DNA from: Podospora anserina
Lineage: Eukaryota
Direction: 5' to 3'
DNA length: 64,000 nucleotides
Assembly (NCBI GenBank): GCA_017654855.1
Contig: CM030338.1
Coordinates: forward strand, 4,030,001-4,094,000
Below, in pieces: positions 13,261 to 22,245 of the stretch. Both the position numbers and the translations under genes were made by a program. How positions within the stretch are numbered: the first letter of the stretch is position 1; each line of letters opens with the position of its first letter. Under the pieces are notes generated by a model that was given only the letters and a program-made list of their open reading frames with translations, was not told where the DNA came from and did no database searches.

Positions 13261-14361
13261 CATTCTCACTGGTGGACGAGTCTCTTCATACCATGTTCCC
13301 AGCACATTTGGGGAGAGTCTGGCTTCTCCTTTTGAAAGCCCCAGATCTGGAGGACAAGTTGTACCACAGAGCTGCTGCCTGTGAGACAAGCTGGTTCGCC
13401 AGAGGGGACCAACAAAAACGTGTTCGAGTTTACCGAGCAGAGTGAGGGGTTGTGGGATACACAAGTTACCTACTGGCAACGTTTCCTTGGTTTGCTTTCT
13501 GTTTGCTCTTCGTAATGTTGGCCCGTTTCGTTTCTTTGCGTATATAAGTTGTAGCAAGCTTCGGGAGTCGCGAGGCGCCGTTTCTTTTGTTGGAGTGGAC
13601 TGTGGAAGGAAAGAGGTGCGGCTAGCAACAAAAAGTGGGAACTGCTTTATGGAGTCTGTGGTGGTATAGGTTTCGAATACTTGTACAATACAATGGGAAT
13701 GAGTGCGGAGATTGTGAGAGCAAATGCGGATCCGATGGTTTTGGAAGTTTTTATCTTTAATGAAGTTGGTAGTGCTACTTTCTAGAGCGGCTTTGATGTG
13801 GTTGCTTGTGAGTCATCTGGCATCTATTGACACGACCATGATTGTTGACCTGAATAACCCTGAAACTTTGGCGGGATGGTGAGTTGGTGATGTGGTATGA
13901 ATGCTTGATTTAAGCCGTTTCGATTTGAAGAAGTCTTGGGAGCTCACACCAAAGAAAATTCCGTTTTATAAGACATCAAGTTTTGGCAGCCTTCTCCACG
14001 GGGCTGTGTAGCCTTGCCTTGCGCCAAGGAATGCCATGCGGCAGGAAGCCCACAATCGGAACTTGCCGTCAAAATTTCCCGGAGCAGAGGCAGAGCTCAT
14101 AGCGGAGTGTGTGGGCAGCCCAAGAACCACCGCCGGGGAGTCGCAACCGTGATAGTTGAAGCTGCCGTCCCACACCTCATTCCCAGCGCAGCAGCAGCCA
14201 TTGATTCTACCTGTCGCCAGCGCCACCCTTGATATCACGCCCTCCAACAACCTGCGACGACGAGCGAGCAATAGGTTGTCGATCAACCCCGCGCCGCCAA
14301 CCATCCTTCCCCCACGAAAGACAAACCGAGCGACGACGACAGAGGAAAGAAGAGAGAAACC

Positions 14362-14809
14362 ATGTTGTACGAGACAATCGGCATTGTATGTCCCCCCTCG
14401 CCGAGCCCTCTTTCAAACGAAACAAAACCAGCAAACCACCCGATTTCTAACAAAAAGCTCCTTCTTGTTTTTCCAGGTCCGCTCCGGGCACCTCCCCGAA
14501 GTAAAAGAGCTGGTCCTCACGGCCGGCAAGATCATCCTCCAGCAGGGGGGTGTCATCCGCGACATCCGTAACTGGGGCACCTTCTCCCTCCCCCAGGCCA
14601 TCTCCCGCGGCCAGCAGCGCCACACAAAGGGCCACTACTTCATCATGCGCTACGACTGCGGCATCAAGGCCAACGAGCAGGTCCGCAAGACGCTCGCCCT
14701 CGACGTGCGCGTCATCCGGTCCGCCAACGTCAAGCTCGGCAACGGCAAGCTCGAGACGCTGAGCAAGTTTGGCGAGATTCGGTGGGATAAGCTGGAGGGG
14801 GAAGTGTAA
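14362..14809 (+). CDS. MRP17: Mitochondrial ribosomal protein bS6m
   Basis: MLYETIGI | intron 14386-14476 | VRSGHLPEVKELVLTAGKIILQQGGVIRDIRNWG...HYFIMRYD...LDVRVIR, the S6 pattern. Confidence 0.9.
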
Positions 14810-15509
14810 GAGATGCGGTAGCGGAAAAGAAAAAGAAAAAAAAGAAAGAAAGAAAAACGAAAAATAGAAACGGGATACCCAGGGATAAACAATGAACGTG
14901 AGGGGCTTACAAGGGAAAGGAGGCGATTTCAGAGATAAGAGTTTCTGTATGATATGTATTGTATATGGATTGGCAAGGGAAATATGGAAGAAGAGGCTAC
15001 CATTTCCAAGGATATGACATGGCCATGCTGAAGTCTTGCAGGTGAGCATCTATGCATCACGGTTTCTAACAGAGGACGTCCGGAACTTTAAGAGCAGCAG
15101 GCAGTTGCGGCATCTCAAACCAGAGGGGCGCCAGTATTCGGCTACTAAAGATGACGAGTTGACATTTTGCATACTATTTTCGCAGGACTCGGTCTTGTTG
15201 CAGAGGCATATGCTGTAGTAGACCAGCCTCCAGAATAAGCCTTGTACCCAACAAGTAGCCCATTAAACACGCAGAACGCTTCTTTTGGTTTAGTCTATTG
15301 TGGTGCTTCATGCTTTCCCCTTTACCAGCCTGCAGATATAACGCCATGACAAATGCTTCAGCCCGTGTACCCATCCCAGAAGCACCACGCCCTATGCAAA
15401 TCCCCCGTATGCCCGCCCCTCCGGTTCCGCATGAGGAATACGACCCTCCATGGCAAGTCCTGGTACGAACCCTCCAAACCCAGTGACAGTATTTGAACAA
15501 GCGCCTTCT

Positions 15510-17770
15510 CTACTCGTCCACGTCCATGTCGTCCTTGGCCTTGGGAGCCACAATCCCCTTCTCCCGGCACCAGACCACAAAGTCGTCGATGATGCCTGGC
15601 CAAGCTTGCTCCTCGGACCAGAAACCAAGGGACTCATCCTCGAGCGTCTTGTTGACGAACACCAATGTCTGGTTCCACAAGTCCTTGCTCACGGTGCGTG
15701 TCCACTTTCCTTCTTCGGCCGCGTCGGGATTTGGTGGCGGAACGTAAAACTTCTCCTGCAGGTACTCTGACCACGACTCCAACCAGTTGACATTGGCAGT
15801 CTTCCACTCGTGCCCAATGCCGGCGTCGAAAAGCATCTCCCACATAGCGCAAGCCGTGTCCATGGCCATGGCCTTGTTAGTTTTCCCAACAACAAAGGCG
15901 TACTGGTACAGCTTCTTGTAATAGGCTGGGTCGTGGGAGACCTGCTTCATCCGAGATTGGACATAGCGTTTTTGGGTTGCCAGGTCGGGTTTGACGCTGG
16001 CGTCGAGAGTTTGGATGACCTCGCTCCAGCCCTCCACAAAGCCTTCCTTGGTGATTTCTCCAATGGTCGTGGCCTTGACGATTTCACACACCACAAGCAG
16101 GCTGTAATCGGCAGGGTTGGCGCCCACAGCCTCGAGGTAGCGCATGGATGAATCTGCCCCCAGGGCCGGGTCCCCGCTATCGTGGTTGTCATTCTTGTCC
16201 TCGTCTAGTTTGGATGTCAGAATTGACCTGGGGGGTTCCCTTGCCGAGCATAAACTTACCAGTCTCGAAATTATCAAAGATGGCTTCTAACTGCTTCTTT
16301 CGCGCGTCTGCCTCCTGCTGCTTCGCACTCGAAGCTCCATCATGGGCAGAAAAGTATCTAGAGCAGAAAGATTCGAGGTCAGCGGTTCTATTCAAGAGTG
16401 CATGTGCGGACTGCGCTGCATAAACAAAACGAACTTGAGTGGCGACCTGTCTTTCGACTTGGACTTTGCCCCCTTGGCCGACAGATCGGGGGCGGCCTTC
16501 TTGGTGGCAGACTTTGACTTTTTCGGTGCCTTGGGCATGATGATGTCTGGAGGCTTGATGGTGGTGTTGGGTGGGGCTTCTCTAATGGAGAGCTGTGGTG
16601 CAGGTTTTGGATTGGAATCAATAGTAGGGACCGGGAGAGAATGCAGTGATGAGTCGCCGCTGTCAGTCTCGGTCGCTCCCTCACTAGGCGGCGCCTTTGG
16701 TGGAGGTTGCCCTGGTCGTTTGTGAAAGCACGAGGCAAACAGGGTGCGGAGCACACTGCGCCCGCTGTTGCCTTCGTGCCTGCGGCTAGTGCCCATTGTG
16801 AGGAAGAATCAGGTCCTAGGAATTGGATGGGCAGGTGCAAGAACTTGTTTTTTGCATTCGATGCTTGATTTGCTCAAATGCCCGGATGCTCAGATGCTCA
16901 ACTGCTCAGAGCGTCTCCCAAGATCAGACTGAGGTGGGTTCCACTGGAAACCTTCAATAAGCCAGAGGGCAACGCCCTCATAATGGCTTGAATGCGCCAA
17001 AAGTCAAAGTAATGCCGACGGTCAAGCGTCGCAAAGGAGAAGAATGAAAAAAGAAACGAGAAGAGAAGTGTCCCCAAAAGAAAAACAGCCGGGAAAAAGG
17101 AACAGTTGCACAAATGAAAGTGGGATGGCAAGTGTTTTGTCTAGTTGCGAGAGCTTATATGAGACATGGTGTCGCAATGCCGATCTCTTCTTCCAGAACA
17201 CTTCCACGGCCGGCCACCCCCCCTAAACCCAGCGTTTGGCCGTCTATCTCGTGGAGAGTGGAGGCCGGACGAGCCTCCTTATCCATCGCCAACCCGACGA
17301 CATGACCATTTTCCCGTCTCCGGGATGGGAGCCGCTTCAAGCAGGGAACCCAGCGGGGGTGGGGGGGACCGCCATGGCAAGGGCAACCAACTTGGACAGT
17401 GCCGGCGCGGTGACAAAGTGCAAGGGGAACAGCAGGAGACTAATACGAATATGCGTAAATGGAAATGAAACTGACCTGTTCACAGCGGCATTGAGATCGT
17501 AGTTGGAATTCTTCAGGTACTGTCGCATTCATCCAGGTGTCAGCGCGCGGGTCATGCGGGAGCAAGGATAGAGGTCCATAATAGTTGATATCGGCCCGAA
17601 AGAAGGGGGTCTTTTCGGCCATACGGTATGACGGGACGAGAAAGAGAGAGAGAGGGAGGGAGGGATGGAAGAGAGAGAGTTAAACCCACCAGCTGCGCAT
17701 TTTCACGAGACGCATTTGTGGCCTCGACAAACTGCGATGCCAGGCGCCGCTGTGTGGTTGTGGACGGCAT
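15510..17770 (-). CDS. DCN1: Defective in cullin neddylation protein 1 (UBA-like + PONY domain)
   Basis: Exons 17770-17690, 17519-17476, 16357-16260 and 16204-15510. The N-terminus QFVEATNASRENAQLYLKNSNYDLNAAVNRYF is UBA-like. The C-terminus SKDLWNQ...AWPGIIDDFV is the cullin-binding domain. Confidence 0.92.
16435..16796 (-). CDS. Putative alternative first coding exon of DCN1
   Basis: Open frame from ATG 16796 (second ATG at 16538) to donor AA|GTTCGT at 16434. It is phase 2 and matches the acceptor at 16358, giving a 77-nt intron and ...KDRSPLK|YFSAH. Confidence 0.6.
17030..17160 (-). promoter_or_regulatory. Candidate internal core promoter in the DCN1 long intron
   Basis: Minus-strand ATATAAG at 17160-17154, followed by a long pyrimidine-rich tract upstream of the alternative exon. 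Confidence 0.35.
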
Positions 17771-19332
17771 GGCTGCTGGCACAGAACCCAAATAATAAAG
17801 CCCAGTCCGCGGCCGTAAGACGGTGACTGACTGTCTGTCGGATGTTGCCCTGCACGCTCGACGTCCTCCAAGGTCTTGTCCAACACGAGGGCAGGACAAG
17901 AAGCAATCCGCACGGTATCGCACAGGCGGCAGTAGCCCAGGTCTCTTCGCAAACGGGAGGGGTTGGCTGGGAATGGCTGGATGGATGGATGGCACGGCGG
18001 CGTCCGTTATCGTTACTGGGGCGGATAGAGCAGTGGGAAGTCAAAAAACAAGCCCTAGATGTCGACTGCCGAGGCGATCAAGTCGTGTCTTTTTTCGTTC
18101 GGTGCAGGCAGAAGAGGGGAAGACTGGTGGTCGGATTCGGTCGCCAAGCGAAAGGGGGGGATGTCGAAAAGGGCCTAAACGCCTGTTCGGGTCTGAGATC
18201 CGAATCGCGGGGTAGTAGACAGCGACAGAGAGGTGTATTCGCTTGTGGCGGACAGGGCAGTACGGAGGTGTCGAAGCAACAGTTGGGGAGGGGCACTGCT
18301 ATATAAACCTACTGAGGTGGCTCACACGGCGAGAAAGAAATGGATGGGATGGATGGATGGATGGATGGGTGTTGAGCTTTCAAAAAGCGTCAGACCGGAA
18401 TGCGGCGCCTTGGGCTGGCAAGGCTGAAAAATGGACGTCATGGCGGGGACCCCTTCAGGTTCCGTCCCGTCCCTTGAGCTCGGGGTGTGGATCTGAGGTA
18501 AGGCATCGACCATCGCTAAGCAGCTATCGCTATCGCCGCCGTATGGCGGGAATCTTGGCGTCCGTCCGGGGGGGCTGTTTCTGGTAGGCCCATTCACCGC
18601 ATCTCGGGCAGACCACTAGCGCAGCTGTCACGGTGCCCGGCGTGGAGCTGCCGATGCATTTTACTGTGACATTTACGGCCTTGGTGGCATAGTCTCGGCC
18701 GATATATTTCATCTTTTTTGCCGTGAGCATTATTAAGAACGAAACATCTACCTGGTTCTGGTCAATCTCGTCTGTGTCAGTGCAAGTGTGAGAATGATTT
18801 GATAAGTAAAGGGGTATCGCAACACTGGGCGGCGTCCCTGCCAAAAAACAAAAAAAGCAAAAAAAAGCAAAACAGAGGTATTCATATATACAGCCTTCCG
18901 TTCATCCCAAGTCGACATAAAATGAACTCCGCCCATGAATGATGTGAACAGCGCCAGAAACGACGAAAGCAAAACCGCCGCTTCAGCCAACACTGCACCT
19001 AGTCTATACTTTCATGCCCAATCCTCGCTGGCTTTCATGCTCTCAGTCTCAAGTGTTGATCCTGCTGCCCGTCACAGAACTCCTCCAATCGTTGTAGCTT
19101 GGCGTGTTGTGCCTACGTCTTCCGTACCCTTATCACGGTTGGCCTGGGACAGCCAAGTAAATCCAATCGAGCCAATCGTGTTGTGGCTGCTCTCCCTCCG
19201 AGCATCGCTGTCCGATACAACATTCAGATCTGGTGGTATCTGAAGCGTCTTCGGACTCACTAGCCTCTCGCCGCGCCTTTCACCACGCATCGCCCGACTC
19301 CGCTGGAGCGAGCGCATGTCTCGGCAAGCCCT

Positions 19333-21934
19333 CTAATCGCCGAGTGGCATGCCCTCAAGTTCATCAATAAGCCGGCGCCAGTTGTCTGCCAGCATCTCCG
19401 AGTACTTGACGCGCTCCTGAGCCCAATCTTGGTTCCACCGCGAGACGTTGTACTGGGTTTGCTGGAAAAAGAGCAACTCGTCGCGGATGCATTCCTTCAC
19501 AAAAACGGACCGATTGTGCTGGTTGACGATCGACTCCTTGTCCTAGAGTGGCCCTTTGGTTAGTTCCCAAGTTCTGGGTCTTCCACTGCAAGCGAACCTC
19601 GAACGAACCTTGATGATGGCTTCCACCACCTTTTCCATCTCGCCCGGCTTGACCATCCCTTCTGGCTTGGTGCGCAGAGCAGCAAGCCGTGTCTCGTTTG
19701 TGGCAATGCGGCGCTCCAGCTGAGGGATATTGTCCTTGTCGAGTCTTTCCCTACGATCAAAAAGATCTCGCAAACTGACCAGCGCGTCTCTCTGGCGCTT
19801 GAGGTCCTCCAACACACCTTCGTCCCACGCACGAGCTTCGTCCTCCAGCAAACCCTGGGCCGTGCGCAGATGACGACTCATTGCTTGGAGGCCGTCATTC
19901 AGCAGGGGAATTTCGTTGGTGTCGGTGGCATATGTGTCGGCACTGGCCTCGGTCAAGGACGTGAGGGTCAGCGCAACCCGGGCATGGTCAGCGGCGACGC
20001 CCTCAGAGCGCTTGACAAGCCGGTCCATGATGTTGCAAACCGTAATGTATAATTCAGCGCTCCGTTTTACGCCAGCACGAGTGCGACTAAAGAGTTCCTC
20101 CAGCGTCTGTGGGAGGGAATCTTCGAGCCCTGGAGGCAAAGCGCGGCCGGCAAACTCATCCTGTATGGAGATCGTAGCTTGCTTCCGCCAAACCGACAGT
20201 TCCTGGTGCTCCTTGGGTCAGCTTCGACATCAGTCACAAAGAAGGCCGGGATGTTACTCACGGTGGGGACGGTTAAGAACATGATGACCATCTGCTCCTG
20301 GCTCAGGACTGGATGCCGAACAAGCGCGTTGAGGAACCTAGCCAGACCGCGGCGTCTCTTCTCAATAAAGGCCCCGTCGTTGGACAGATGGTTTCCGTTG
20401 ACTACATCCTATTAGCATCCTTCGCTGTCGCAATCGCAAAATGATCACGGTGTTCGCACCTGCAACCCGCTTCGGAGGTAAAAGCGGCAGCACTCGGAAG
20501 GGATATCGCTTGTGCAGACAGTCCAACAACCACACAAAATCGCTATACCGTCGAATCACCTTGCTGGTTCGTCTTGTGCTGGATACCTCGTAGTTGTGGT
20601 GCTGAAACAGAAACATGCCCTCCTTCTCGGGCATCAAGGTAACCAGTATGTTTTCTTCCACAGCTGAGCCTGCTCGCCCGCCTCCAATGGTCCTGCTAGG
20701 AGTCGGGCCCACGGGCTGAACAATCGCAGGCTCACGCGCCCCTTCGTTGACGGCAAAGGGAACAGTGGGAATGGCACCCTGACTGCTGAAACCACCGGCC
20801 GATGACGGGTTCCCATCAAAAAATCCCCAGGTGCCTGCCGACTCTCCTACTGGTCCCGAAGCGGACGGAGGTGCACTGGTGGTGAAGGTAGACGTTGTGC
20901 GGCCCGGCATCGTAGCCTGTGGGCTCGTGCTGAACAAGCCGCTCCCGTTCTCAACGGGTGCCGTACCGGGGACATCGCTGCCGTTGGATCGCGGGGGTTC
21001 GGGGGCGTGGTTATGGTTCTTGTGCACGTCGGGCGTGTTCCACGGATCTTCTGGGTAGTCCATGGACGCCTTCCTAATGGTGCGATGCTGGCGGGGCGAA
21101 GGAAGCGGCTTGTGGGCCGACGCAGGAGGAGGTGGTGACACTGGTCGCTGAGGCGGTTTGGCACCCAGTTCGGCAAGATGGGGCAGGGCTGGTGTGGTGT
21201 CGACGAGGCCGTGGAGCTTGGGCTGGGGTAGACCTGGGGAGTTGACGCAACAAGGTTAGCTTGGATAAGCGCAAGGATGCAGCGGGAGGGAAATCAATCG
21301 AGGTGGTTGACAGCTCGTGGGATGCTGGCGATAAGATAAGGTGATGCAACAGGCGAAGAGACACTGTAGTGGAAAGCCGAAAGACAACAATGATGTGGAG
21401 AGGCGGGGCAACCCATCACTCACTTCGGCGGCGCTCATCCACACCATCCAGGCTAACCGTCTCGCCTTCCTGGGCCAGACCAATCAAGGCCAGCAGAACA
21501 TTGAACTCGCCCCGTTCCAGCGAGATGCCCTCGCTGCCGCCGCCGGGAGGAACCACAATCCCCATTATGCGTGCCTGGGCATCTGCACCTAGCTTAGCAG
21601 CCGCTAATGTTCTCGCGACGCCACCAGACGTGATGCGGCCTCCGCTGCCATCCTCGCGGGACACGGCGTCGAACACCTCGACGTAGCTGTCGGGCACATC
21701 CGACGAAGCCAGCAGGTTGCGGATCAGATCGGCACGAGTGTGGTGCTTGCGGGGCGTCGGCAGGTCCCACGGCGACGAGTCCGACCCAGCATCATCGTCT
21801 GCGAAGAGAGCCGTTGATGTTGATTTAGTCATGGGCGACTCGTCCTCAAAGAGCGATGATTTGCTGTTTGCGACATGGCTGGGCCCGGTGCCTGACGAGG
21901 CAGCTTCTGGCAGAGAGCTTCCAAAAAGAGACAT
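19333..21934 (-). CDS. MVP1: Sorting nexin Mvp1 (PX-BAR)
   Basis: MSLFG start. PX domain KEGMFLFQHHNYEV...RRYSDFVWLLDCLHKRYPFRVLPLLPPKR...FIEKRRRGLARFLNALVRHPVL, then a BAR-like C-terminus ending EGMPLGD*. Four introns. Confidence 0.93.
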
Positions 21935-22245
21935 GGCAACAAGGACAATGGGGTAGATAGGTAGGTATCAGATTGAAAAGCAGGTTGAAGAGAAGGCAAG
22001 ACTATGTGCGACGTGATTGATGGCCAGAGACCAATGGTGATTCCTGAAAGCAGCTGTCGCGATGCGCTGCAAATATCATAAATGCATTGGATAGAAAGGT
22101 CCTTGGAGTGCCAGCGATGTTGCAACGATGCTAAATGGGGTGTTTTGTTTCTTCACGATGGCGAGGGATGTTGGAGATGTTGGAGGACTCGATGTTTCCT
22201 GGACGGGGGCGCTGGCGGCTGGACCGACTGTGACGAAACCAGTTC

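What the first reader, a model, noticed from the sequence alone, without database searches (positions are those of the whole stretch)
16358..17475. DCN1's 1.1-kb intron hides an alternative promoter and first exon: one locus, two N-termini
Seen: this intron is 1118 nt, whereas the other introns modelled in the window are under about 200 nt. Inside it are a TATA-like motif with a CT-rich tract (about 17160-17030) and an ORF from ATG 16796 in good context (ACAATGG). The ORF ends at donor AA|GTTCGT (16434), in the same phase 2 as the UBA exon donor and 77 nt from the shared acceptor. The product is MGTSRRHEGNSGRSVLRTLFASCFHK...MPKAPKKSKSATKK...KSKSKDRSPLK|YFSAH + PONY domain. Established: animal DCN1 paralogues differ in their N-termini (DCNL1/2 UBA, DCNL3 myristoylated, DCNL4/5 NLS). 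Inference: this fungus may obtain UBA versus basic/lipidated or nuclear neddylation-E3 isoforms from one gene. The Gly2 context is not an ideal myristoylation consensus.
Basis: partly seen in the sequence, partly recalled or inferred. Interest (0 to 1): 0.72.

Follow-up and report, generated by a model that had tools for sequence, protein, structure and literature searches.

The report
One DCN1 gene, two N-termini
A Podospora anserina neddylation gene makes two messenger RNAs with different first coding exons, giving either the usual ubiquitin-binding head or a different conserved head on the same catalytic body, and public annotation lists only the second form.

Summary
The window is Podospora anserina S mat+ chromosome 7, gene Pa_7_380 (DCN1 orthologue, minus strand).

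- **The exon is not hidden.** The exon inside the 1118-nt intron is the first coding exon of the reference protein (384 aa, no UBA). The unannotated part is the upstream UBA exon pair.
- **Both junctions exist.** Contigs of 4 of 4 runs from 4 studies carry 16435^16357 and 17476^16357 at similar k-mer depth.
- **Intronic starts are published.** All 10 published StringTie transcripts of this gene start inside the intron (window 16840-17150). These starts are coverage-based, not mapped 5' ends.
- **The ORF is conserved.** Its length alone is not significant (110 of 2000 shuffles). Its peptide motifs and phase-2 donor recur in three Sordariales families and 7 metagenome loci. UBA exons lie upstream in all 4 loci with enough flank.
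- **Myristoylation is not supported.** Gly2 is in 4 of 14 aligned N-termini. An invariant Cys in ..LFxSCFHKR is the conserved feature.

Best reading: two promoters, two mutually exclusive first coding exons and one acceptor give UBA-PONY (305 aa) and Cys/basic-PONY (384 aa) proteins. The mechanism is ordinary, and the DCN1 case and its N-terminal module appear undescribed. Function is untested.

The parts
17690..17770 (-). Distal first coding exon, coding part (ATG 17770): first 27 residues of the UBA-like domain. The 5'UTR extends upstream; its start was not determined.
   Evidence: Sequence. Contig pieces join 17690 to 17519 in X1, X6 and X8 (table 8). The spliced product equals P0064. Pfam UBA_4 E=5.2e-11.
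17520..17689 (-). Intron 1 of the distal (UBA) transcript, 170 nt, GTGGGT..ACAG.
   Evidence: (table 8).
17476..17519 (-). UBA exon 2 (44 nt) with phase-2 donor CAG|GTCAGT.
   Evidence: Joint 16357^17476 in 4 of 4 runs. Phase.
16358..17475 (-). 1118-nt intron of the UBA transcript. It contains the proximal promoter zone, the 5'UTR and the alternative first coding exon.
   Evidence: Joint 'skips 1118, CT..AC' in 4 of 4 runs.
16840..17150 (-). Zone of published transcript starts for the annotated (non-UBA) mRNA. 5'UTRs are 44-354 nt, and five of ten lie at 17024-17035.
   Evidence: Table S1 of PMC9801653, 10 rows, converted as ATG 16796 plus 5'UTR size. These are coverage-based StringTie ends.
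17032..17082 (-). CT-rich tract (84% pyrimidine) just upstream of the main start cluster. A weak TATA-like CATATAAG lies at about 17154-17160.
   Evidence: A promoter role is inferred.
16898..16981 (-). Upstream ORF 1 in the commonest 5'UTR (27 codons, out of frame with the main ORF).
16816..16857 (-). Upstream ORF 2 in the 5'UTR (13 codons).
16435..16796 (-). Alternative first coding exon, which is the reference annotation's exon 1. It encodes 120 codons plus 2 nt, with motifs LFASCFHKR, ATETDSGDS and MPKAPKK, and ends at phase-2 donor CAA|GTTCGT.
   Evidence: 100% identical to PODANS_7_380. Conserved. Joint 16357^16435 in 4 of 4 runs. No Pfam family.
16358..16434 (-). 77-nt intron of the non-UBA transcript. 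It shares its branch region and acceptor with the 1118-nt intron.
   Evidence: 'skips 77'. An unspliced 135-nt contig 16330-16464 is listed in X1, X4 and X8 (table 8).
16260..16357 (-). Shared exon 3 (linker helix, YFSAHDGASS...).
16205..16259 (-). Shared 55-nt intron.
   Evidence: Joint in 4 of 4 runs.
15510..16204 (-). Shared last coding exon: PONY / cullin-binding domain, to the stop codon.
   Evidence: Pfam PF03556 E=6.7e-29. AlphaFold2 is confident from about residue 126 of the 384-aa form.

Best explanation
Pa_7_380, the single DCN1-type NEDD8 co-E3 gene of Podospora anserina, is transcribed from two promoters.

- **Distal transcript.** It starts upstream of 17770 and carries two small UBA-coding exons. 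These are spliced across 1118 nt to the acceptor at 16357. The product is the canonical 305-aa UBA-PONY protein.
- **Proximal transcript.** It starts inside that 1118-nt intron, at about 16840-17150 and mostly about 17030, just after a CT-rich tract. Its first exon encodes a 121-residue disordered N-terminus. A phase-2 donor at 16434 is spliced across 77 nt to the same acceptor. The product is the 384-aa protein of the reference annotation, which has no UBA.

The two first coding exons are mutually exclusive, and both donors are in phase 2.

Shown: both junctions, both open frames, and conservation of the exon order, donor phases and peptide motifs in Sordariales.

Inferred: that the intronic starts are true promoter starts, and that both proteins are made. 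Also inferred is that the new N-terminus changes localisation or partners through its invariant Cys in a hydrophobic/basic helix, an acidic TETDS motif and a basic PKAxK stretch. This would parallel how the variable N-termini of animal DCNL1-5 are thought to act.
For: **Identity**
- The exon translation is 100% identical over 100% of its length to PODANS_7_380.
- The spliced model equals P0001, and the UBA model equals P0064, a protein known only from a Logan contig.

**RNA (4 runs of 4 studies)**
- Joint 16357^16435: 4 of 4 runs, depth 246 / 67.7 / 436.3 / 26.9.
- Joint 16357^17476: 4 of 4 runs, depth 298.2 / 36.8 / 501.7 / 58.7.
- Joint 16204^16260: 4 of 4 runs.
- All have CT..AC ends, which is GT..AG on the minus strand.

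**Starts**
- 10 of 10 selected StringTie transcripts of Pa_7_380 have 5'UTRs of 44-354 nt. That places every start inside the intron and none at the distal promoter.
- The same paper lists the gene under A5SS.

**Domains**
- P0064 has UBA_4 (5.2e-11) plus Cullin_binding (1e-28). P0001 has Cullin_binding only.
- P0064 aligns over residues 6-289 with full-length human DCNL1 and over 9-285 with yeast Dcn1.

**Conservation of the alternative N-terminus**
- It is found in annotated proteins of Podosporaceae, Chaetomiaceae and Lasiosphaeriaceae.
- In 14 aligned N-termini C23, R27, E43 and T44 are invariant. F20, S22, K26, D45 and P88 are at least 90% conserved.

**Conservation of the gene structure**
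- 7 metagenome loci hold the exon.
- UBA exons 1 and 2 lie upstream on the same strand in 4 of 4 loci with at least 1000 nt of upstream flank.
- The UBA exon 2 donor GTAAGT is phase 2 in 4 of 4 loci. The alternative donor GTCCGA/GTCCGG is phase 2 in 7 of 7.
- L006 joins to YYNDNQNHGG. That is the same junction residue as in the UBA-type protein P0014 and the non-UBA model P0013.
Against: - The intronic starts are coverage-based assembler ends, not cap-mapped 5' ends. That method kept only transcripts covering the annotated CDS, so it could not report the UBA form.
- In 2 of 4 runs (X1, X6) one contig runs unbroken from 16435 to 17505, into UBA exon 2. Some distal transcripts therefore read through the UBA donor. 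Part of the exon-containing RNA could be such read-through.
- The runs are only guessed to be RNA, and contigs cannot give strand, ends or levels.
- The commonest 5'UTR carries two upstream ORFs.
- There is no protein-level evidence for either isoform.
- L001/L002 and L004/L005 are near-duplicates. Independent lineages with upstream flank therefore number three, not four.
- No Neurospora or Sordaria protein appeared in any search.
Confidence: 0.75

Rival explanations
1. There is one promoter and an alternative 5' splice site. All transcripts start at the distal promoter. The 16435 donor is a downstream alternative to the 17476 donor. The long form ends the UBA frame after about 45 intron codons, so it is an unproductive or regulatory isoform and the intronic ORF is not translated from it.
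For: - Contigs continuous from 16435 to 17505 in X1 and X6, 2 of 4 runs.
- The gene is listed as 'A5SS' in Table S2 of PMC9801653.
- The UBA frame read into the intron stops after SVSFPF...GFPA.
Against: - 10 of 10 published transcripts covering the exon start inside the intron, with 5'UTRs of 354 nt or less. None has the 900 nt or more that a distal start would give.
- The ORF's peptide motifs, its start codon region and its phase-2 donor are conserved across three families and 7 metagenome loci. An untranslated retained intron would not show this.
Confidence: 0.1
2. The reference model is the only functional product. The upstream UBA exons are a relic or splicing noise.
For: - Public annotations of P. 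anserina and five sibling Podospora species give only the non-UBA form.
- The published transcript table lists only that form.
Against: - The UBA junction is present in 4 of 4 runs, at a depth equal to or above the other junction in 3 of 4.
- The UBA exons give an intact frame with a UBA_4 hit above the Pfam cut-off.
- The UBA form matches human DCNL1 and yeast Dcn1 end to end.
- The UBA exons and their phase-2 donor are kept upstream of the exon in 4 of 4 testable loci.
- The published method could not have reported a transcript that skips the annotated exon 1.
Confidence: 0.05
3. The intronic ORF is a chance ORF inside a non-coding or regulatory transcript, and only the UBA form is a protein.
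For: - ORF length is not significant: 110 of 2000 shuffles.
- No Pfam family.
- AlphaFold2 pLDDT is below 50 over residues 1-13 and 22-124.
- Two upstream ORFs precede it.
Against: - Invariant and near-invariant residues across 14 N-termini whose PONY domains are only 38-49% identical between families.
- An open frame and in-phase donor in 7 of 7 metagenome loci.
- ATG 16796 has the best initiation context of the ATGs in the 5' region.
Confidence: 0.05

Closest known systems
Yeast Dcn1 and human DCNL1/DCNL2 (UBA + PONY NEDD8 co-E3s)
   Same: The 305-aa isoform has the same two-domain layout. It has UBA_4 and Cullin_binding hits. It aligns with full-length DCNL1 (8or2_F, residues 6-289) and yeast Dcn1 (3bq3_A, residues 9-285).
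   Different: Here the UBA head is optional. The same gene also makes a form without it. Public annotation of this species lacks the UBA form.
Human DCNL3, DCNL4 and DCNL5 (PONY with unstructured, non-UBA N-termini; myristoylation site on DCNL3, NLS on DCNL4/5)
   Same: The 384-aa isoform is a PONY domain behind a predicted disordered N-terminus. That N-terminus carries a Cys/hydrophobic/basic motif and a lysine-rich stretch. [quoted passage not shown]
   Different: In animals these are separate paralogous genes, whereas here it is an alternative first exon of one gene. I found no sequence relationship to them, because the exon matches no Pfam family. Gly2 is not conserved, being in 4 of 14 N-termini. 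Lipidation or nuclear import is untested.
Alternative transcription start sites and alternative first exons in fungi
   Same: Two first exons are spliced to one acceptor and change the protein N-terminus. The phenomenon is reviewed for fungi in PMC9604717, of which I saw only the search listing and the start of the abstract.
   Different: Nothing differs in mechanism. What is particular is the gene, the swap of a folded domain for a different conserved module, and conservation across an order.

Membership tests
DCN1 / DCUN1 family (PONY-domain NEDD8 co-E3) | PONY / cullin-binding domain (Pfam PF03556) above the curated cut-off | tested here: met
   Exon 4 alone scores 101.1 bits against a cut-off of 27.9. 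P0064 scores 100.6 bits and P0001 99.6 bits.
DCN1 / DCUN1 family (PONY-domain NEDD8 co-E3) | DAD patch that binds cullins (D226, A253, D259 in yeast Dcn1, as quoted in PMC4886823) | tested here: inconclusive
   D328, A354 and D360 of P0001 are invariant in 11 sequences. Their spacing is 26 and 6, against 27 and 6 in yeast numbering. I did not verify the residue-by-residue equivalence to yeast.
DCN1 / DCUN1 family (PONY-domain NEDD8 co-E3) | Promotes cullin neddylation with the NEDD8 E2 | not testable with these tools
UBA-type DCN1 (yeast Dcn1, DCNL1/2) | N-terminal UBA-like domain | tested here: met
   This holds for the 305-aa isoform only: PF14555 at 42.6 bits against a cut-off of 21.8, residues 12-49. 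The 384-aa isoform has no such hit.
DCNL3-type, N-myristoylated | Conserved Gly2 in a myristoylation context | tested here: not met
   Gly2 is present in 4 of 14 aligned N-termini, all from Podospora and close genera. The others begin MA.., ML.., MF.. or MT... In L003 and L004 the only in-frame Met gives MIRRFF.. or MIRRIF... The consensus itself is recalled, not computed.
DCNL4/5-type, nuclear | Functional N-terminal NLS | not testable with these tools
   A basic stretch MPKAPKKSKSATKK is present, with P88 at least 90% conserved. No NLS predictor or assay was run.
Alternative-promoter / alternative-first-exon gene | Two different 5' exons joined to one common acceptor in RNA | tested here: met
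   Joints 16357^16435 and 16357^17476 are each in 4 of 4 runs.
Alternative-promoter / alternative-first-exon gene | An independent transcription start for the downstream first exon | tested here: inconclusive
   10 of 10 published StringTie transcripts start inside the intron, but these are coverage-based ends. Contigs cannot show starts.
Alternative-promoter / alternative-first-exon gene | Both first exons keep the downstream reading frame | tested here: met
   Both donors are phase 2. Both spliced CDSs are open, at 918 and 1155 nt.

The most novel reading that the evidence does not exclude
The Sordariales-specific N-terminus is a lipid anchor. The invariant Cys in the hydrophobic/basic helix (..[LF]RR[LF]FxSCF[HQ]KR) would be S-acylated. 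Promoter choice at one locus would then switch the NEDD8 co-E3 between a soluble ubiquitin-binding form and a membrane-bound form. That would be a convergent, single-gene counterpart of animal DCNL3.

A bolder variant is left open in most species but is unlikely in Podospora. In many species the mature N-terminus would read M-[ILF]-R-R-[FL]-F. This resembles the hydrophobic, basic N-terminal helix of the NEDD8 E2 that docks in the PONY pocket (my recollection, not computed), which would suggest self-inhibition.
Probability: 0.2. Interest if true: 0.6.

Novelty: new variant of a known kind. Interest (0 to 1): 0.48.

Why it matters
- **Annotation gap.** In UniProt and NCBI, the DCN1 orthologue of this model fungus and of its annotated relatives appears to lack the UBA domain. 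The domain is in fact encoded by two unannotated upstream exons and is used in about half of the junction-bearing contigs.
- **Design of experiments.** Anyone studying cullin neddylation, CSN or CAND1 cycles, or senescence and development in Podospora would otherwise work with an incomplete gene. This applies to deletions, tags and promoter fusions.
- **Evolution of the family.** The locus suggests that N-terminal diversification of DCN-type ligases, reached in animals through five paralogues, is reached in an order of fungi through two promoters in one gene.
- **Genetic access.** The role of DCN N-termini is described as largely unclear in PMC4886823. It becomes testable in a haploid organism by mutating one start codon at a time.

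Tried and rejected
- **RNA holders.** No RNA holder is listed on record, and kinds are guesses ('RNA?'). I take no position on expression levels from this.
- **Parts without cover.** X4 has no depth at 17219-17420. The intron contigs of X4 and X8 end at 17212 and 17334. I first read this as a hint of an intronic start. Uncovered parts of contigs are not evidence, and the two ends do not coincide, so I do not use it.
- **Complex prediction.** I tested residues 1-45 of P0012 against its own PONY domain (115-365). The score was 0.04 and there was no verdict. It says nothing either way.
- **The protein-atlas search on the exon.** No usable hit.
- **Pfam on the exon.** 0 families.
- **The genome search 'own'.** No genome is held for this window.
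- **ORF-length shuffles.** Not significant, so ORF length is dropped as an argument.
- **TATAWA search.** I searched the 700 nt, or as much upstream sequence as each locus holds, before the most upstream in-frame ATG of each alternative ORF. There were 0 matches in 7 sequences (the window and six loci). In L001 and L002 that ATG lies upstream of the conserved start, so the stretch just before the conserved start was not scanned there.
- **The search for related loci with the 14-sequence alignment.** I repeated it with a 4-sequence alignment.
- **Programmatic acceptor search in the loci.** It failed for most loci because a further intron intervenes. Acceptors were read by eye instead.
- **Literature.**
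  - 'Pa_7_380': 0 papers in main texts.
  - DcnA + neddylation + Aspergillus nidulans: 0 papers.
  - Dcn1 + Neurospora + cullin: 6 listings, none on isoforms by title or abstract start.
  - DCN1 + neddylation + fungus + isoform + UBA: 52 papers hold at least 4 of the 5 terms. Of the 15 listed, none concerns a fungal DCN1.
- **Unreadable supplements.** Two supplementary .pptx files of PMC9801653 could not be read. They may show examples.
Full report
**What the sequence is.** The translated intronic ORF (window 16437-16796, minus strand) is 100% identical over its full length to 'uncharacterized protein PODANS_7_380 [Podospora anserina S mat+]'. UniRef names this 384-aa protein 'Defective in cullin neddylation protein'. 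The window is therefore P. anserina chromosome 7, gene Pa_7_380, on the minus strand.

A script spliced the window's exons. Exons 16796..16435 + 16357..16260 + 16204..15510 give exactly P0001, the reference protein. Exons 17770..17690 + 17519..17476 + 16357..16260 + 16204..15510 give exactly P0064. P0064 is a 305-aa protein present in the protein collection only from a Logan contig.

The five sibling Podospora species in the same 90% cluster are also annotated with the non-UBA start. Some of those models have small splice differences at the 77-nt intron.

**Check of the observation.** Every sequence detail holds.
- The long intron is 1118 nt (17475..16358).
- The gene's other introns are 170, 77 and 55 nt.
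- ATG 16796 lies in ACAATGG.
- The frame is open to the donor CAA|GTTCGT at 16434. That donor is phase 2, like the UBA exon 2 donor CAG|GTCAGT.
- The alternative donor is 77 nt from the shared acceptor.
- A 50-nt tract with 84% pyrimidines lies at 17082..17032.
- The TATA-like motif is only CATATAAG and does not fit TATAWA.

ORF length alone is not beyond chance. 110 of 2000 shuffles of the intron reach the ATG-ORF length. Two other frames of the same stretch are open for 130-161 codons.

**RNA evidence.** The run search returned 18 runs guessed to be RNA and 6 likely DNA runs, none on record as RNA. I laid four runs from four studies on 15300-18300. All four carry three spliced joints with GT..AG ends on the minus strand.

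| Joint | Skips | Depth in X1 / X4 / X6 / X8 |
|---|---|---|
| 16204^16260 | 55 nt | 382.9 / 346.3 / 265.1 / 135.3 |
| 16357^16435 | 77 nt | 246 / 67.7 / 436.3 / 26.9 |
| 16357^17476 | 1118 nt | 298.2 / 36.8 / 501.7 / 58.7 |

- The exon 1-exon 2 join (17690 to 17519) is visible as adjacent pieces of one record in X1, X6 and X8 (table 8). It is not in the joints table, which dropped a row at a skipped repeat.
- In X1 and X6 one contig runs unbroken from 16435 to 17505, which is 30 nt into UBA exon 2. Some distal transcripts are therefore not spliced at the UBA donor.
- A 135-nt contig (16330-16464) shows that the 77-nt intron is sometimes retained. It is listed for X1, X4 and X8.
- Contigs cannot give ends, strand or levels, so they leave the promoter question open.

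**Published transcript starts.** I read the following parts of Lelandais et al. 2022 (PMC9801653): the abstract, sections 6, 9 and 19, and the rows for this gene and Pa_7_390 in Tables S1 and S2.
- Table S1 lists ten StringTie transcripts of Pa_7_380 from three datasets. Their 5'UTRs are 354, 44, 299, 239, 239, 236, 228, 239, 352 and 189 nt.
- Added to ATG 16796, these place the starts at 16840-17150. Five of ten lie at 17024-17035, at the 3' edge of the CT-rich tract.
- All ten lie inside the 1118-nt intron. None has the 900 nt or more expected from the distal promoter.
- The method kept only transcripts that fully cover the annotated CDS. It could therefore not have listed the UBA form.
- The starts are coverage-based, not cap-mapped.
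- Table S2 lists the gene under 'A5SS' without coordinates. Junction filters were at least 2 runs and coverage of at least 5. This fits two donors on one acceptor, but I cannot tell which event was meant.
- With a start near 17030, the 5'UTR holds two upstream ORFs of 27 and 13 codons. ATG 16796 has the strongest context.

**Domains and fold.**
- The 305-aa form has UBA_4 (E 5.2e-11, above cut-off) and Cullin_binding (E 1e-28). The 384-aa form has Cullin_binding only.
- The alternative exon matches no Pfam family and gave no Atlas hit.
- The 305-aa form aligns over residues 6-289 with full-length human DCNL1 (8or2_F) and over 9-285 with yeast Dcn1 (3bq3_A).
- I ran AlphaFold2 on the 384-aa form with an 11-sequence alignment. 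The PONY part is confident. pLDDT is below 50 for residues 1-13 and 22-124, with one weak helix at residues 10-22.

**Conservation of the alternative N-terminus.**
- *Named proteins with a related N-terminus:* Cercophora samala (75% identity over the exon), Triangularia setosa (68%), Apiosordaria backusii (64%), two Cladorrhinum strains, Achaetomium macrosporum, Chaetomidium leptoderma, and Lasiosphaeria ovina and miniovina. By NCBI taxonomy these fall in Podosporaceae, Chaetomiaceae and Lasiosphaeriaceae.
- *Library search:* the HMMER scan of 1.84 billion representatives gave 11 hits at E up to 0.001. One is P0003. Six are short unnamed ORFs with the same motifs. One is a 48-aa fragment of this very exon. 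Three are long repetitive proteins with low-complexity matches only, which I set aside.
- *Alignment of 14 N-termini:* C23, R27, E43 and T44 are invariant. F20, S22, K26, D45 and P88 are at least 90% conserved. This defines three motifs: [LF]FxSCF[HQ]KR, [ST]ETD[SG] and MPKAxK.
- *Start residues:* Gly2 occurs in only 4 of 14. In 10 of 14 a Met directly precedes [ILFV]xx[LFI]F, where Podospora and its close relatives have Val.

Between families the PONY domains are only 38-49% identical. Such residue conservation in a disordered stretch argues for translation under selection.

**Conservation of the gene structure.** A scan of metagenome contigs with a 4-sequence alignment returned 7 loci. L001/L002 and L004/L005 are near-duplicates, which leaves five lineages.
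- By tblastn, all 7 loci have the alternative exon followed by PONY exons on the same strand.
- In the 4 loci with at least 1000 nt of upstream flank (L001-L004, three lineages), hits to UBA exon 1 and exon 2 lie 530-760 nt upstream of the alternative exon. That is 4 of 4. The other three loci have only 342-562 nt of flank and cannot be judged.
- The UBA exon 2 donor is GTAAGT in phase 2 in 4 of 4. The alternative donor is GTCCGA or GTCCGG in phase 2 in 7 of 7.
- I read the acceptors by eye. The automatic search mostly failed because a further intron follows.
- In L006 the exon after the acceptor begins YYNDNQNHGG. The same residues follow the UBA domain in P0014, a JGI-sourced UBA-PONY protein. 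They also follow the non-UBA N-terminus in the Chaetomium globosum model P0013. Both joins therefore seem to exist in a Chaetomium-like lineage too.
- The Podospora didyma model P0070 strings the UBA exons, the alternative exon and PONY into one protein. This shows the same exon order there, whether or not that fused model is real.
- No protein with this N-terminus came from outside Sordariales. None came from Neurospora or Sordaria. Those searches see only annotated or ORF-called proteins, and no fungal genome collection was available.

**How it most likely works.** There are two promoters, two mutually exclusive first coding exons with equal phase, and one acceptor.
- The distal transcript gives the canonical UBA-PONY co-E3.
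- The proximal transcript gives a PONY domain behind a disordered N-terminus with a Cys-containing hydrophobic/basic helix, an acidic Ser/Thr motif and a lysine-rich stretch.
- S-acylation of the invariant Cys or nuclear import through the basic stretch are my inferences and are untested.
- The idea that the N-terminus docks on its own PONY domain got no verdict from the complex test, which says nothing either way.

**Novelty.** The exon and the 384-aa protein are already in public annotation. The gene is flagged 'A5SS' in a supplementary table.

I found no text describing two DCN1 isoforms in a fungus.

Alternative start sites changing N-termini are a known kind in fungi. I know this from PMC9604717, of which I saw only the listing and abstract start.

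What appears new is threefold:
- the unannotated UBA isoform;
- the conserved non-UBA module;
- the conservation of the two-first-exon layout across Sordariales.

I rate it a new variant of a known kind, of moderate interest.

Noticed in passing
window 17360: The RNA-type contigs of X1 and X6 carry 5 and 4 extra G (plus strand) in a homopolymer run inside the intron, compared with the window. This is a strain difference or an assembly error in a poly-C/G run.
   Followed up: no
P0013, P0017 (Chaetomium globosum CHGG_05316, C. tenue); locus L006:366-760: These public models start at the internal MPKA Met and then read ..AARSDPTS... In L006 that stretch is the intron after the conserved donor AAG|GTCCGA. 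The two models probably miss the upstream Cys-motif part of the exon and read through the donor.
   Followed up: partly
P0057, P0060, P0061 (Podospora pseudocomata, P. pseudopauciseta, P. pseudoanserina): The sibling-species models differ from PODANS_7_380 only at the 77-nt intron. One reads it through in frame (26 extra residues). Two insert 10 residues (TADLESFCSR) through another splice choice. These are likely annotation differences rather than biology.
   Followed up: no
P0070 (Podospora didyma model): One annotated protein contains the UBA domain, then the alternative N-terminus (MASSDTLDSDSRVMVLQLFKSCFQKR..), then PONY. It is either a third real isoform or a gene-prediction fusion of the two first exons.
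   Followed up: no
window 16330-16464: An unspliced contig across the 77-nt intron is listed in X1, X4 and X8. Retention would end the frame after ..SPLKFVLFMQRSPHMHS.
   Followed up: no
window 16538 (Met87, MPKAPKK..): A second in-frame Met inside the alternative exon is conserved in 12 of 14 aligned N-termini. A Logan-derived ORF (P0068, 298 aa) and a 48-aa fragment (P0048) begin there. A shorter product lacking the Cys motif, made by leaky scanning or a further start site, is possible.
   Followed up: no
window 14066-14998 (+) and 19543-21967 (-): These are the neighbours. Downstream is a convergent gene, Pa_7_390 in Table S1 of PMC9801653. Its published 3' ends (about 14992-14998) lie only about 60-240 nt from those of Pa_7_380 (about 15060-15232). 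Upstream on the same strand are long ORFs of a gene with ..RRYSDFVWLLDCLHKRYPF.., which looks like a PX-domain protein by recollection only. Contigs of X6 and X4 run from the DCN1 5' region into it.
   Followed up: partly
window 18340-18372 and 17975-17995 (minus strand): Short (CATC)n-like repeats (catccatccatccatcc) occur twice in the region upstream of the UBA start codon.
   Followed up: no
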